Source: Okamejei kenojei (taxonomy: Eukaryota). From it: 64,000 bases of DNA. Within the stretch, counting starts at the first letter, position 1, and every line of letters begins with the position of its first letter. A program made the position numbers. The DNA lies in NCBI GenBank assembly GCA_035221665.1, contig CM069158.1, positions 27,156,001 to 27,220,000 on the forward strand, in the 5' to 3' direction. Below are positions 48,957-60,900 of the stretch, in pieces.

Positions 48957-51900
48957 TCAGCTTATAACTCGCCGTCTAAGTGGGCATCAGAATGGCACAG
49001 CTGCTGCCTCACAGCGCCAGAGGCCTGGGTTCAATCCTGACAGGTGCTGTCCGTATGGAATTTGCATGTTCTCCCCATGTATCCTCTGCATGCTCTGGCC
49101 ACTCATCCCAAGGCCCATGCAGGTTTTTCCCATGCAATCCCAATAATTAATTAATTCATTCATTCAATTGACCAGGGTATTGAACAAAGATATGCATCAT
49201 GGCGGTCTATGCCTGGGGTGGCTGAAAGTATTATTTTAAATGTGCTTGCTCCATTTATCAAGTATTTAACCTGATTCTTTCAGCTTTATTACATTTTAGA
49301 ACAAATCCTAATTAATATATACATCTAAATTACAAGAGATAACTGGAATAGAGAATACAAAAAAATAATAATAAAACTACTTCAATTCTTACCGGATGGT
49401 TTCAATAATTTCATGAGCAGCGTCATGATGTTTGTCCTACAAAGACAAAAATTCAACAATATGACAAATGCAAGATCATTAAGGAGTGAAACAACTTGCT
49501 GTGCAATTAATAAGCGAGTTCGGTTTTCCGAAAAACACAAGGAATCATGGGATTTGTCAAAGGTCAAACGCTATAAAGAAAAATCAAACGAAGCGCTGTC
49601 GATACAGTGGGTATAGTTTGGGTCTGATTTTCTGTCTTATTTCTAGCTTGTATTGGTCATGGCGGACTCAAATTACGAACAAAGCGCTGACTGTATAAAC
49701 CGTGTATAAATTCTTATCTTTATTCATGATTTATGTGTAAAAATATTTAATCTGAGGAGGGGAGGTGCCAGGTAGCGGGAGAGCCGGGTGTAATAGCGAG
49801 ATAGAGGGGGCAGATGCGAGTGGAAAACCGAGGGGGGAGGGGGAGACATTCTCAGCATGCTGTACGCACACAGACCCGCGTCTCATCCGCAGCCAGGATC
49901 GAACCCGGGTCCCCGGCCCCCAGGCAGCGCGGAGAAGAAGCGCCAACCCCAGTTCATCTCCGCCTCTCCCGCCGGATCAACCTACAGCCCTGGACCAACG
50001 ACACCAGCAGCCTCAGGCCCATAGCCAGCGTGGAGAAGAGTCAACTCCAGCCCAACCACATTCCAATTCCAGAGGACGCCGCTCCCCAATGGGCCGCTAT
50101 AACGACAAGTCCCAGTTCGCCCATGACCTGGCCGAGCTGCGCTCCCTCAGCCTCCACCACAAGTACAAGACAGAGCCATGCTGCACCTTCCACACCACCA
50201 GCTTCTACCCCTACGGCACCCGCTGCCACTTCATCCACAACCCCGAGGGGGAGCAAGGGCCCCCTGGGCCCAGCCTCCTCCGGCCCGGCGCTAGACTGGG
50301 CCGCACTGTGGCCTTCAGCCCCGACCTGGAGTTGGAGCTGGCCCGGATTCTAGGCAAGGGAGTTAGAGGAGGTTGCTGCTGCCGCCAGCACCATCAGCTC
50401 CAGTGGGCGTGGGCCGGTAGGAGCCCGTCCGCAGACTCTCCGACCAGGATGACTCCAGCAGCAGCAGCTTTGAGTCGCCAGTCTTCAAGCAGGGCTGGCA
50501 GCTGCCCATATTCAGCAGGATCTCGGTGTCGGGCTGAGGGGAGGGGGGTGAAGGTGGAGAAGACCTCCCTGTTGCCTCTCCCAAGCTGTGACTGGGTGCC
50601 GTCTCCCATAGCGTGTCACCCTCCCCTCTGACTTTGTGGGGGCTGCTGTACTTTAGTGTGAAAGACTGGAGGCGGCAAGGGGCGGTGGCATCTTTCCCAT
50701 TGAGAGAATACAAGTTCTCAACAGCCACTGGAAATGGCGAGAGGTGCAGCCGAGGTCACCAGCCCGCCGGGGAACGGCTCCCCTGGAGCCGGAGCAGAGC
50801 CAGCACCCCCCTGCAAGTCTGGGGCTGCCCTCGGACAGGGACAGGACACCCGGGAGGGGACGGCCCAGCAGCAACTCAACAGCACCCGGAGCGCCAGAGA
50901 CCCGACCACAGACAGCACCCGAGCACAGAGACCCGACCAGTTGCCGAGAATGTTTATAGCGAGGGACCTATGACTTGGTCATGTGCAGTCGGAATACAGA
51001 ACTCATTTATTAATTGAAGATACTCCTTTGACAAATAAGGTATGGACTTAAAATATGGATGTGCAGACGTCCCTTAATAATGTTAATTATAGGAGTCCCT
51101 AAAATATTTGCAATATGAATACTAACGCTAAACTGAAATACATGTACAGTAGGTTAGCGCCAAGCATACGCCATACAGTTAGATCACACTGATTTGCACC
51201 AACCGCACCCCATATCGATATATCTGCCAAATACAATATGATAATCTCAAACCTTAAAACATTCATTTTCACATTGTTTACTGAGGGTGGTGGTTGTGAG
51301 AGTGAATAGATTGTGGTGGGAAGAAGCATTGGAAATGAGTCTTTGGGAATTTGCATTGAAGAAGAAAGGAGCTTCCTGGTTTTAATTCTTAAATAGTCCA
51401 GCCCTAGTTGCAATTATACTATTAATCAGAAGACATCCAGAGAACAGATTTTGCACAGACACTCTACTAAATACTTAAGTTAATACAAATACATTGGTTA
51501 AATCACCTTCAACAATTTAAGCTAAAAGGAAATGCAACTCGTATGTCTGCCTCATTTCAATCGATTTTTTCCAATCATGTCTGAAATCTTTTGAACCATG
51601 GCGCCATTCTGGAGATTACTATATTTGTCTCCAAGTCTCACATGTCCTCCAACATGCACTATTCCGAACCAAATACAAAATTCCAATAGTCAATGTGCTA
51701 GAAATGAAGATGCTAGAGTTTGCCATTAGCTCAAGTATGAATCTTAGGTCCAAAGTGGATGACGTCATAATTTACAGTGGTCCAGAATTTGCTGATAAAT
51801 ACCATAGCTCTACTTGAAAATGCAACCAAGTTTAGGATTTCAGCTTAAACCTATCAAAAGACAAAAATACCAGAGGAATCTGTTGCCAAACTCCCCCACT

Positions 51901-57900: not shown

Positions 57901-60900
57901 CCTGAAATTGGGAATGGGGTGGGGGGGGGGGGGGGGGGGGGGGGACACGGACTAAGTATAAACACTGCTATGGGGCGATAGTCCCGAAATGAAGGCGAGG
58001 AGCCAGATGCTTCGGGAGGTATTTTTAATAGTGTCCTTGTCACCAGAGGAGTCTGCAAGAGGAAGATGGTACCTAAACCCTTGCCTTTTATCCTTCTAGC
58101 TAAAGGCCGCCTCTGGACTCAACCATTCCCGTGCCAAGGGGTTTGATAGTGGGAATGGCCCAACCCTTCAGAGCCGCCACACTGCTGTAATTTCTACATG
58201 GTGAAACCAAAATGTATAAAAATAGCCTTTATTAAAATCTGATAATGTGCACTTTAACTGCATGTGATTTTTTCTATTACAAATCTCAAATTGCAGAGTA
58301 CAGAGGCAAATAAATAAATGATGGATCTTTGTCCCAAACATTATGGACGGCACTGTATATGCAATATAATTCAACTCATTTCAGACCTTAGAAACATATC
58401 CCTCCAATTTTATGGAAAAAATAGATCAGTGTCAAAAGGAGAGGACCAAACTTGCGCAACAACAATTTCGAGTTTGGGGGATAGCAGTAAATATATTAGC
58501 AATAAAAATTGAATATAATTTTTCTAAAACAATGTTACTCAAAACATCTCTTACAGGTCTTGCAACTGGCATGATACCCCAACTTCCGAAATATCCATCA
58601 AATATCCAATAACACAAAGCAGAGAATATCAGTGGTCTAGAGGCCAAATGTGAAGGGAATAGGAGAATGAATAAATCAATAAACAATGTACTTACATACC
58701 AGACTGCAGAGTCAACATGAAATTTATTGGAGCTTTGGCCATTTCAAATACGGCACTGATCACATTTTTCTCCTTGTCCAAGCTTTTATTACTACTCTCC
58801 AAAAGAAGTGTCCTATCAATAAGCGATTTCAGTATTTCAACTGCACATGCCCATGTCATAAGTCATAGGTCATTTGCGATAAAAATTCTCGCCAGCCGAG
58901 CTGCTGCATGCAGAGAGACCTGTGTTTCATCCGTATTTTCCAGTTTTGCTTCTTCGAGGTAAGAAACTGCTTTCAAAACTATTAACTAGGTGTATTTATG
59001 GTTTATTTGTACAAAAACGATGACGATTTTGTTGGTTTTATTGCTTTATGCTTCGGTGTTTTATTGCTTTACACTTCGGAGGTGTATAACTGTTATACCA
59101 GTGTCTCTAACTGCCATGTTCAGTAGACATAATATTGTTTAAAGCTCATTGCAGTTATTAGTGTGCCTGGTAAGAACTTCGGCAAACAAACTTTTACAGT
59201 TTTCTGTGATATTTGGATTTGGTCACTCCTTGCAGTGTAGTAATGTAACTTGTAATCATACATACTGCCATATTAATCAATGCAATAAGTGCGGTGATCA
59301 TTCAAGTCGCTTTGCGTTTCATTTTTTTTACTCAGCTGAAAATAAACAAACCGTTGAAACAGGCTCTCACTCTCGCTACTGCCTTTGCAGTGTCCTTGTG
59401 GGTCCATCATTTACATGCCACTGGAAATTAAATCTCACCCCACACTCCTCCACTCTCTATCTCACATTCATCACGAACAGCCACCTGCTACAATAGGTGC
59501 AATGGTCTTTCTTTTGTAATTCCTGCCCACAGTCTCTGATGGGGCCGGTTTCACAGACTTAACCATGACCGGTCACGCTTAACCAGGGCTCTGGGAACTC
59601 GGCATCTGATGGGGACGAGGAGGGTTCCAGAGGGAAGGCAGGGACAACTTAGAATCTGGCAGCAGAGTGGCTCTGTTAATGGGTTCATTCAACAGCGAGT
59701 TCAGTTCAGAAAGAATACACGCCGGTAGATCCGCAGCACTGGTTCAGGAGATCGATCCAATTATTGAACAACAGGAGGTGGAATCCATCTGTGACAGACT
59801 CCACAGTAAGATGTGTCCACAGGAGCGGGTGTTCACTCTGATCAATAACTCGGGCACAGTGAACTTCACAATGTAAAACCATTTTAGTCAAAACTGTCCC
59901 GTAGGCTGCAGACCCGTCTTAACAGTACATTCACACCGCCTGTAGGCAAAGCATCCGCCCACATCACTGTCTGTAGGCAAAGCATCCGCCCACACAGTGA
60001 CCAGATGGTCACTGCCTGCCTCAGATTAAATATATTTTTACACATAAATTAATAAAGATAAGAAAATGTTTCAAACACAAGTAATATATTCTTATTCCAG
60101 GAGCAAACACATTAAGGATTAAATGAAAATAATAAATTCTTTAACATTTTGAATATCCCATAGTTGCAGATTAATGAACTGAACTAGAACTGGGACTGTG
60201 CAAGTAGCGAGTGAACGGCAGAACAAGAAAGGAAGCTATTGAGTCGACAGAATTCTAGATTAATTCATTAGTAGAATAGTTAACAATTTATACATAATTT
60301 ATACAGCACTGTGTTCGCTATTTTCCCCGCAAATGACCTTTGACAAATCCCATAATTTCTTGCGTTTATCGGAATACCAAACTTGCTTATTCTTAAAATG
60401 CTTCATTTCTCAAAAGTAAAATTTAGCAACTGATGTAGCATATTATAGTTGGTATTTGAATATGCATTAGAAAGCCACTTGAGGCTACAGCCCTTATACA
60501 TTTATATAACTAACCTTTAAATTATACTTGATGATGAATACAATTCTTTGAGATTACTGCCCAAAGGGCACATAAATTTTTCAAAGTATTTGATGAATTA
60601 CCTTATGAAATACCATTGATAGATTAAAGCCCAGATGAATGGTCAAAATGGCCAAGTAAAAAGTCACAATTTCTCATTAAGGGATTAATTTTGATTGTGG
60701 CTCACCACCAGTTCTGTAATCCTTACTATTCTATGTGTAATTAAAATGTCAAAAATGTCCAACAATAATACTTCTTCGAACAGTGCTCAGGAATAATAAT
60801 GGACCATGCTCAGATTTATAAAAATAGAAAGATTATCAAGGACACGGCAGCAGTAGAGTACAAATTCAATGGTGCCTCAGGATTAAGGATGACTTGCACT

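What the first reader, a model, noticed from the sequence alone, without database searches (positions are those of the whole stretch)
49481..60395. Pack-type transposon family: two inverted copies with shared ends and different cargo
Seen: 49481-51028 and 58803-60395 are each ~1.6 kb, have imperfect ~90-100 bp TIRs and share three blocks in opposite orientation (49507-49567/60330-60390, 49711-49757/60019-60064, 50941-51028/58803-58895). I saw no similarity between their interiors. Copy A starts at TTAA-GGAG. Known: Kolobok/T2-type elements use TTAA targets and purine-rich termini; Pack-MULE and Pack-TIR elements keep their ends while swapping captured host DNA. Inference: this is a gene-fragment-capturing non-autonomous family in a chondrichthyan. 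It is the best candidate here for an undescribed system.
Basis: partly seen in the sequence, partly recalled or inferred. Interest (0 to 1): 0.8.

Follow-up and report, generated by a model that had tools for sequence, protein, structure and literature searches.

The report
Skate transposon pair, one carrying ZFP36 fragment
Two old, decayed copies of one small cut-and-paste transposon family sit in an intron of a skate DOT1L gene, and one of them carries a broken piece of a ZFP36-type zinc-finger gene, a kind of gene capture already known in animals.

Summary
Copies A (about 49483-51026) and B (about 58805-60404) lie in opposite orientation and share four collinear blocks (73-88% identity, E 2e-16 to 7.5e-4). 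Each copy has its own terminal inverted repeats (0 of 300 shuffles reach the observed score). The interiors are unrelated, apart from a roughly 36-nt repeat-like motif.

A's interior is a truncated, frameshifted fragment of a batoid ZFP36-like gene (best hit Rhinoraja, E 1.9e-31). It runs from mid zinc finger 1 through the stop codon into about 400 bp of downstream sequence.

A little-skate gene model (P0007) shares A's truncation and frameshift, and appears to end inside the right arm. A second cargo-bearing copy therefore probably exists. I could not tell whether it is an orthologue or a paralogue.

B's interior matches no protein, so "cargo" is unproven for B.

The TTAA/Kolobok idea fails: TTAA flanks only 1 of 4 ends. 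The best target-site-duplication candidate is 8-10 bp and is not significant.

Verdict: A is a Pack-TIR-like element, a known kind in animals (PMC8277862). The transposon superfamily is undetermined. No skate genome was available, so copy number, the parental locus and an autonomous partner remain unchecked.

The parts
49483..51026 (+). Copy A, whole element (about 1.54 kb). The left boundary is uncertain and could be 49470 if the 10-bp flanking repeat is a real target-site duplication.
   Evidence: The termini GGAGT...ACTCC are taken from the four-end alignment.
49483..49757 (+). A left arm: the outer TIR plus subterminal backbone shared with B 60404-60019.
   Evidence: blocks 1-3; alignment. 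Similarity stops after ...AATCTGAGG.
49758..50940 (+). A interior ('cargo'): 1183 bp, 57-67% GC in AT-rich surroundings, unique within the window.
49853..49928 (.). Short repeat-like motif present as an imperfect inverted pair (49853-49889 and 49894-49928). It resembles the repeat family at 6674-6822, 13121-13275 and 63608-63762.
   Evidence: The matches are weak: 2-3 of 200 shuffles reach the score against the repeat copies.
50008..50531 (+). ZFP36-like gene fragment. It lacks the N-terminal part of zinc finger 1, keeps zinc finger 2, has a frameshift near 50440, and keeps the C-terminal ...LPIFSRISVS up to the stop codon.
   Evidence: tblastn: P0001 residues 82-256 map to 50008-50439 (frame 1) and residues 239-288 map to 50379-50531 (frame 3). 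Pfam zf-CCCH E 8.4e-4, below the curated cut-off.
50532..50940 (+). Sequence downstream of the ZFP36-like stop codon, presumed 3'UTR of the parent gene. It is collinear with the C-terminal half of the little-skate model P0007.
   Evidence: No poly(A) run precedes the right arm.
50941..51026 (+). A right arm (TIR), shared with B 58894-58805.
58805..60404 (-). Copy B, whole element (about 1.6 kb), inverted relative to A.
58805..58894 (-). B arm equivalent to A's right arm.
58895..60018 (.). B interior: 1124 bp, unique within the window, with no protein, tRNA or Rfam match. It holds a roughly 35-nt repeat-like fragment at 58898-58932, next to the arm.
60019..60404 (-). B arm equivalent to A's left arm. 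It is about 110 bp longer than A's because of indels in the poorly conserved middle.
49392..49436 (-). Context: a 45-nt DOT1L coding exon. Its acceptor AG is at 49438-49437 and its donor GT at 49391-49390. A's left end lies 32-47 nt upstream of the acceptor, inside the intron.

Best explanation
A and B are two old, diverged copies of one non-autonomous cut-and-paste (TIR) DNA transposon family. Their shared arms are about 80% identical. They sit in opposite orientation in the 5' intron region of a skate DOT1L gene.

The family keeps a left arm of about 275-385 bp and a right arm of about 90 bp. The segment between two fixed backbone points is replaceable.

In copy A that segment is a piece of a host ZFP36-like (tristetraprolin-family) gene, running from mid zinc finger 1 through the stop codon into downstream sequence. 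It is preceded by about 250 bp of filler that includes repeat fragments. A is therefore a Pack-TIR-like transduplicate.

Inferred, not shown: the fragment was copied into a broken element by template switching or gap repair, and the ends then allowed the chimaera to be moved by a transposase supplied in trans. Both copies are now inert and decaying.

The origin of B's interior is unknown. It could be non-coding host DNA or the family's own interior.
For: - Four collinear inverted blocks, E 2.5e-16 to 7.5e-4.
- Each copy has its own TIRs; 0 of 300 shuffles reach the observed score.
- The interiors switch at the same two backbone positions in both copies. Two independent nested insertions would not be expected to do that.
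- A's interior is ZFP36-like. 180 proteins had E<=0.001 among 5218 candidates. The best are batoid ZFP36-like proteins (P0001 Rhinoraja, E 1.9e-31, 58% identity). tblastn maps P0001 residues 82-288 onto 50008-50531 with one frameshift.
- The parental gene is not in the window; P0001 and P0003 match nowhere else in it at a meaningful E-value.
- P0007, a 243-aa little-skate 'ZFP36-like' model, shares A's derived features. It has MGRY where six real batoid genes have FCRY or RCRY. It lacks the start of zinc finger 1. It reads the same shifted frame, SADSPTR.
- P0007 is collinear with A from 50089 to 50937. Its last residues, VAETVFCL then stop, line up with A's right-arm frame VAENVYSE, and the stop is in register with the TGA in B's arm.
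- In the 56-residue zinc finger 2 region, counted by eye from the alignment, A differs from the real gene P0001 at 10 sites, P0007 at 7, and A from P0007 at 16. This fits two copies that decayed independently from one captured ancestor.
Against: - Only two copies were available, and no skate genome could be searched.
- No target-site duplication is demonstrable. A's best candidate, TATGACAAAT / TTTGACAAAT, is matched or beaten in 114 of 1500 decoy windows. B's best is a 6-mer with one mismatch.
- No parental DNA locus is known. The closest real gene is only 58% identical in protein, so the capture is old and the junctions cannot be checked for microhomology.
- The cargo is a 5'-truncated piece that reaches the 3'UTR, which is also the shape of a retrocopy.
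- B's interior has no identifiable source. The 88-aa ORF, searched against 1.84 billion representatives, gave 1 hit at E 7.9e-4. That hit is a bacterial repeat protein and was judged spurious.
- P0007 could be the orthologous locus in another skate rather than a second insertion.
- P0007's overlap with the arm rests on 4 identical residues of 8 plus the position of the stop.
- No transposase with matching ends is in the window.
Confidence: 0.7

Rival explanations
1. One reading: a Kolobok/T2-type family that inserts at TTAA and serially captures gene fragments.
For: TTAA directly precedes GGAGT at A's left end, 49479-49486. The outer ends are purine-rich.
Against: TTAA flanks 1 of the 4 ends defined by the alignment; the others are TTTG, AAAA and ATTT. 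The TTAA inside CAATTAAT is part of the palindromic TIR itself. It is not conserved in B, which has TCAA or AAGA at that position. Among the 113 of 128 ORFs of 75 aa or more that I scanned, no Kolobok-like transposase appeared, only Tc1-type DDE_3 and HTH domains. My knowledge of Kolobok terminal features is recalled and was not tested against a library.
Confidence: 0.05
2. Nested insertion: a plain MITE-like element was later hit by an unrelated insertion, namely a 5'-truncated retrocopy of ZFP36-like mRNA. The ends never 'captured' anything.
For: The fragment begins inside the coding exon and runs through the stop codon into presumed 3'UTR, as 5'-truncated retrocopies do. LINE reverse-transcriptase remnants are nearby at 54612-55363.
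Against: There is no poly(A) or A-rich tail before the right arm, and no direct repeat flanks the interior. B's unrelated interior starts and stops at the same backbone positions as A's. About 250 bp of non-ZFP36 filler precedes the fragment. Homology starts well inside the coding region (P0001 residue 82). From recall, the family's only intron lies near the 5' end, so the fragment cannot show whether an intron is present.
Confidence: 0.12
3. Transposition-independent gap filling. A resident element suffered a break, which was patched from an ectopic ZFP36-like template. The chimaera never moved. P0007 is simply the orthologous locus in little skate.
For: In PMC8277862 (section 7, read) most animal Pack-TIRs are single-copy and arise this way; only four of the 370 (given there as 1.4%) were multicopy. 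A search with P0007 residues 95-243 found only P0007 itself, 1 of 1943 candidates. No third copy is in the window.
Against: A and P0007 differ at 16 of 56 residues in zinc finger 2 and by several long indels. That looks large for orthologues among slowly evolving skates, but this rests on a recalled rate, not a measurement. The window's species is unknown, so orthology cannot be excluded.
Confidence: 0.3
4. Not transposons at all: the remains of a local inverted duplication of about 1.6 kb whose middle was later overwritten.
For: The only two copies in 64 kb lie 7.8 kb apart in inverted orientation.
Against: Each copy's own two ends are inverted repeats of each other, which a simple duplication does not produce. 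Similarity ends at the arm tips, and the flanks are unrelated. The 7.8 kb between the copies holds unrelated elements: a Tc1-like element and LINE fragments.
Confidence: 0.04

Closest known systems
Pack-TIRs of animals (Tan et al. 2021, Nat Commun 12:4280, PMC8277862; abstract and sections 7 and 14 read)
   Same: Both ends come from one TIR element and enclose 100-5000 bp of non-element sequence derived from a host gene. Here the ends enclose 1183 bp that include a ZFP36-like fragment. A possible second copy would place it among the rare multicopy cases.
   Different: That catalogue required a parental copy at 90% or more DNA identity, that is, young captures. This capture is old: 58% protein identity to the nearest real gene, and arms about 80% identical between copies. 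The paper's main text holds none of the words shark, skate, cartilaginous or Kolobok. Its supplementary species and element tables could not be opened, so I cannot say whether any chondrichthyan case is listed there.
Pack-MULEs, Pack-CACTA and Pack-TYPE elements of plants (PMC8903248, PMC6379663, PMC5861414; search listing and abstracts only)
   Same: Non-autonomous elements that keep family ends while their interiors hold different captured chromosomal fragments. A family can have members with different cargo.
   Different: Those are plant families tied to known Mutator or CACTA transposases and have defined target-site duplications. Here the superfamily, the duplication and the autonomous partner are all unknown. 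A candidate 8-10-bp duplication in A would fit hAT or Mutator-like elements but is not significant.
Kolobok / T2 elements (recalled; no library available to test)
   Same: A purine-rich outer terminus, and one TTAA next to one end.
   Different: TTAA is absent at 3 of 4 ends. There is no transposase evidence.
Tc1/mariner elements, the abundant DNA transposons of skates (PMC12361510; passages read)
   Same: Same genome compartment. Long TIRs also occur in the window's Tc1-like elements (46240-47707, 139-nt TIRs; 55942-58357).
   Different: The neighbouring element shows the textbook TA-CAGT...ACTG-TA ends. A and B show neither CAGT termini nor a TA in a consistent register. Their ends do not match the Tc1-like TIRs in the window.

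Membership tests
Pack-TIR (criteria of PMC8277862, section 14) | The internal sequence is flanked by two TIR pieces belonging to the same element. | tested here: met
   both arms are shared between A and B, and the two arms of each copy are inverted repeats of each other (0 of 300 shuffles reach the score).
Pack-TIR (criteria of PMC8277862, section 14) | [quoted passage not shown] | tested here: met
   A 1183 bp, B 1124 bp.
Pack-TIR (criteria of PMC8277862, section 14) | The internal sequence has a unique parental copy elsewhere in the genome at 90% or more identity and 80-120% of its length. | not testable with these tools
   No skate genome was on hand. At protein level the source family is clear for A (ZFP36-like, E 1.9e-31), but identity is only 58%, so the 'young' threshold would probably fail. 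For B no source was found.
Pack-TIR (criteria of PMC8277862, section 14) | Not a retroduplicate: the parent has several exons and the captured copy is not intronless. | tested here: inconclusive
   Homology starts at residue 82 of P0001, so, as far as I recall the gene's structure, no intron position is covered. There is no poly(A).
Pack-TIR, multicopy class | Two or more copies with the same cargo at different loci, with different target-site duplications. | tested here: inconclusive
   P0007 shares the cargo's derived truncation and frameshift, but its locus is unknown.
Kolobok | TTAA target-site duplication at both ends. | tested here: not met
   1 of 4 ends.
Kolobok | An autonomous partner with a Kolobok transposase and the same termini. 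| not testable with these tools
   None in the window (113 of 128 ORFs scanned). The genome was not available.
Tc1/mariner | TA duplication and CAGT-type termini. | tested here: not met
   Positive control: the neighbouring element at 55942-58357.
hAT or Mutator-like (8 bp or 9-10 bp duplication) | A flanking direct repeat of 8-10 bp at both copies. | tested here: inconclusive
   A has a 10-mer matching at 9 of 10 positions, with an exact 8-mer TGACAAAT inside it. In decoys, 114 of 1500 reach a 10-mer with at most 1 mismatch, and 5 of 1500 do so with a terminal inverted repeat of 6 of 10 or better. B has nothing better than a 6-mer with one mismatch.
ZFP36/TIS11 family (the cargo, as a gene) | A tandem pair of intact C-x8-C-x5-C-x3-H zinc fingers. 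| tested here: not met
   The N-terminal part of finger 1 is missing. Cysteines are replaced in both fingers (KSQFAH for KCQFAH; FYPYG for FCPYG), and there is a frameshift near 50440. Pfam zf-CCCH scores 19.6 bits against a cut-off of 20.5. It is a pseudogene fragment, not a working member.

The most novel reading that the evidence does not exclude
The ZFP36-bearing element is a genuinely mobile, multicopy Pack-TIR of skates. After capturing the zinc-finger and C-terminal part of a ZFP36-like gene, it transposed to several loci. One of them is annotated as a protein-coding 'ZFP36-like' gene in little skate (P0007). Its 8-10-bp duplication and roughly 100-bp TIRs would place it with hAT or Mutator-like elements rather than the Tc1/mariner elements that dominate skate genomes. 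That would be one of very few multicopy Pack-TIR families in vertebrates and, as far as my searches show, the first in a cartilaginous fish. The unusually long open frame in A (291 codons; 4 of 1000 shuffles reach it) leaves open that the chimaera was once expressed.
Probability: 0.3. Interest if true: 0.55.

Novelty: new member of a known kind. Interest (0 to 1): 0.35.

Why it matters
Capture of gene fragments by DNA transposons is well documented in plants and has been catalogued in animals. There, multicopy (mobilised) cases are rare: four of 370 in PMC8277862.

A skate family with conserved ends, swappable interiors and a cargo that recurs in a second genome would add a cartilaginous-fish example. 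It also matters for annotation: the little-skate 'ZFP36-like' model P0007 looks like a reading of such an element, not a real paralogue.

The element also lies 32-47 nt upstream of a DOT1L splice acceptor, which may be of local interest for splicing.

It is not a new kind of system.

Tried and rejected
- A third copy of the ends in the window: none found.
- More cargo-bearing gene models, searching with P0007 residues 95-243: only P0007 itself.
- Identity of B's interior. Pfam on 4 + 10 B ORFs gave nothing meaningful; the only hit was one DUF match at E 0.038, far below its cut-off. The exhaustive HMMER search of the 88-aa ORF gave one hit, a bacterial PPC-domain repeat protein, rejected as chance.
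- tRNA and Rfam scans of 49000-61000: no tRNA, and one sub-threshold snoRNA-like match outside the elements.
- Target-site duplication by exhaustive boundary scan with decoy controls: no significant result.
- The 'TTAA' inside CAATTAAT as a duplication: rejected, because it is palindromic TIR sequence and is not conserved in B.
- Nested insertion of A into an older copy's TIR. This was suggested by the 12-nt identity between A's right flank 51025-51036 and TIR-internal 60337-60348 (E 0.39). I rejected it because the flanks do not continue the TIR on either side (read).
- Naming the window's species through a DOT1L exon. The best hit is an unnamed 94%-identical cluster representative and no named skate row appeared, so the species is unresolved.
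- Literature. 'Pack-MULE' plus 'cartilaginous' gave 0 papers. 'gene capture' plus 'DNA transposon' plus 'shark' gave 2 general reviews. 'Pack-TIR' gave 3 papers, none about cartilaginous fish judging from titles and abstract starts.

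
Full report
**What is there**

A sensitive blastn of 49400-51150 against 58700-60500 gives four collinear blocks on opposite strands:
- 49509-49566 / 60391-60334: 88%, E 2.5e-16
- 49670-49719 / 60323-60278: 76%, E 7.5e-4
- 49711-49757 / 60064-60019: 88%, E 1.9e-11
- 50942-51029 / 58894-58802: 73% over 95 columns, E 2.3e-10

No further copy of either end exists in the 64-kb window.

Aligning the four ends from the outside inwards shows a conserved outer core...CAATTAATAAGCGAGTTCGGTATTCCGA. 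There is a variable middle, then a conserved inner block, GTCA(A/T)AGGTCAT..GC.ATAAAAAT.

Within each copy the two ends are inverted repeats of each other. A has 24 of 28 identical and B has 21 of 25. In both, 0 of 300 dinucleotide shuffles reach the observed score. These are therefore TIR-bounded elements, not just a duplicated stretch.

Over the four shared blocks the two copies are about 80% identical (201 of 252 aligned positions). The family is old.

**Boundaries and target site**

By homology of the four ends, A runs from 49483 (GGAGT...) to 51026 (...ACTCC). B runs from 58805 to 60404.

TTAA precedes only A's left end. The other three flanks read TTTG, AAAA and ATTT. The TTAA inside CAATTAAT is part of the palindromic TIR and is not kept in B.

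An exhaustive scan of boundary pairs found one notable candidate in A. It is TATGACAAAT (49460-49469) against TTTGACAAAT (51027-51036), with an exact 8-mer inside it.

Decoy window pairs of the same geometry reach a 10-mer with at most one mismatch in 114 of 1500 cases, so this is not significant on its own. It also needs 13 extra bases at A's left tip.

B offers only TCTCCA / TCTCAA. The duplication length, and with it the superfamily, stays open. TTAA (Kolobok, piggyBac) and TA (Tc1/mariner) are not supported.

As a positive control, the neighbouring element at 55942-58357 shows clean TA-CAGT...ACTG-TA ends.

**The interiors**

Similarity between A and B stops at the same two backbone positions in both copies. 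On the left it stops after ...AATCTGAGG (A 49757, B 60019). On the right it resumes at GYTGSCGAGAAT (A 50941, B 58894). Both interiors are unique within the window.

A's interior is GC-rich, 57-67% against 30-40% around it. It holds a 291-codon open frame at 49756-50631.

That frame hits ZFP36/TIS11-family proteins: 180 with E<=0.001 among 5218 candidates. The best are batoid: Rhinoraja longicauda at E 1.9e-31, then Pristis, Mobula, Leucoraja and Narcine.

tblastn maps Rhinoraja residues 82-256 to 50008-50439 in frame 1, and residues 239-288 to 50379-50531 in frame 3. The fragment therefore:
- lacks the start of zinc finger 1;
- has lost cysteines in both fingers;
- carries a frameshift near 50440;
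- still ends with ...LPIFSRISVS and the stop codon.

About 400 bp follows with no poly(A) before the right arm. About 250 bp of unassigned filler precedes the homology.

Within that filler, 49853-49889 and 49894-49928 form an imperfect inverted pair of a motif. The motif weakly resembles a repeat present at 6674-6822, 13121-13275 and 63608-63762. From memory that repeat looks like the tRNA-related head of an elasmobranch SINE. No tool confirmed this (ARAGORN and Rfam found nothing in 49000-61000).

B's interior gave nothing:
- no Pfam hit for 4 + 10 ORFs, apart from one meaningless DUF match at E 0.038;
- no tRNA and no Rfam family;
- the exhaustive search of its 88-aa ORF against 1.84 billion representatives returned one hit at E 7.9e-4, a bacterial PPC-domain repeat protein matching through a repeated 19-residue stretch, which I reject.

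B does carry the same repeat-like motif (58898-58932) directly inside its 58-kb arm. Calling B's interior 'cargo' is therefore unproven.

**A second cargo-bearing copy**

P0007 is a 243-aa Leucoraja erinacea model named 'ZFP36-like' by its source.
- It starts MGRYSDKCQFAH where A reads MGRYNDKSQFAH. Six real batoid genes read FCRYGDKCQFAH or RCRYGDKCQFAH.
- It reads the same shifted frame, SADSPTR, where the real genes have SADSLSDQ or a near variant.
- It is collinear with A from 50089 to 50937, through the presumed 3'UTR.
- Its last residues, VAETVFCL then stop, line up with A's right arm read as VAENVYSE, and its stop is in register with the TGA in B's arm. That is 4 identical residues of 8, so it is suggestive only.

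In the 56 residues around zinc finger 2, counted by eye from the alignment, A differs from the real Rhinoraja gene at 10 positions, P0007 at 7, and A from P0007 at 16. This is the pattern of two copies decaying independently from one captured ancestor.

I could not decide whether P0007 is a paralogous insertion or the orthologous locus of another skate. The window's species is not identifiable, where the best DOT1L hit is an unnamed representative at 94%. A search with P0007's non-ZFP36 half found only P0007 itself.

**Surroundings**

The window holds nearly the whole DOT1L gene on the minus strand. I placed its exons one at a time by local tblastn with Mobula and Narcine proteins, from 5417-4830 up to 49448-49392.

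The most upstream exon found is 49436-49392, with its acceptor AG at 49438-49437. A's left end is 32-47 nt upstream of that acceptor. A, and probably B, lie in the intron upstream of this exon. The first coding exon was not located.

Between A and B lie LINE reverse-transcriptase remnants (54612-55363) and a Tc1-like element (55942-58357). A Tc1-like transposase relic with 139-nt TIRs is at 46240-47707.

**Interpretation**

The best reading is a non-autonomous TIR family whose arms are kept while the middle is replaceable. A is a Pack-TIR-like transduplicate of a ZFP36-like gene.

The mechanism is inferred from what is published for such elements, not shown here. It would be repair of a broken element using an ectopic template, with repeat-containing filler, and then possibly mobilisation in trans (PMC8277862, abstract and sections 7 and 14; plant parallels from abstracts).

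The main open alternatives are:
- a single-copy, transposition-independent gap filling, with P0007 as orthologue;
- less likely, a nested retrocopy.

The Kolobok assignment is not supported.

**Novelty**

Pack-TIRs are a known kind in animals. In the searchable library I found no report for cartilaginous fish.

I therefore rate this a new member of a known kind, of moderate interest.

**Left unchecked**

- No skate genome was available.
- Copy number, true termini, the duplication length, the parental loci, empty sites and an autonomous partner all remain untested.

Noticed in passing
window 4830-49448, minus strand: Nearly the whole DOT1L (H3K79 methyltransferase) gene, about 27 exon matches to Mobula and Narcine proteins. 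Element A's left end lies 32-47 nt upstream of the splice acceptor of the 45-nt exon at 49436-49392. The first coding exon was not found in the window.
   Followed up: partly
window 55942-58357: A 2.4-kb Tc1/mariner-type element with about 134-nt TIRs (90-91% complementary) and clean TA-CAGT...ACTG-TA ends. It has a weak zf-RVT-like ORF at 56083-56673. A solo end of the same family is at 44497-44643.
   Followed up: partly
window 46240-47707: A Tc1-like element with 139-nt TIRs (91% complementary). It holds broken transposase ORFs on the minus strand (DDE_3 E 7e-10, HTH_Tnp_Tc3_2 E 1e-13).
   Followed up: no
window 6674-6822, 13064-13275, 63551-63762: Three copies of a repeat family containing ...CAGGATCGAACCCAGGTCTCTGG.... 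From memory it resembles the tRNA-related head of an elasmobranch SINE read in antisense. Short fragments of it occur inside both A (49853-49928) and B (58898-58932).
   Followed up: partly
window 878-948, 6386-6456, 7291-7361, 7859-7931, 14521-14591, 30906-30978, 35469-35541: Another dispersed repeat family (core ...GCTGGAGTAACTCAGC...CATCTCTGGAGA...), with at least seven copies in both orientations.
   Followed up: no
window 49545-49562 and 60338-60355 (TIR inner block): The conserved inner TIR block TGTCAAAGGTCA is one mismatch from a direct-repeat-1 nuclear-receptor site as I recall the consensus. No test was done.
   Followed up: no
window 49756-50631: The 291-codon stop-free frame across A's cargo is longer than in 996 of 1000 dinucleotide shuffles, even though it crosses the frameshift in the ZFP36 homology. 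Part of the length is inherited from the parent ORF, so this is not evidence of selection.
   Followed up: partly
window 18096-18382: A GC-rich 37-bp tandem array (about 6-8 units) inside a DOT1L intron.
   Followed up: no
window 32329-32464 and 33419-33554: A 136-nt direct repeat at 94% identity. It overlaps a DOT1L exon match that appears twice (P0123 residues 386-437 at 32505-32329 and residues 362-442 at 33646-33404). This may be a local exon duplication.
   Followed up: no
window 43320-43495: A run of 176 N next to DOT1L exons.
   Followed up: no
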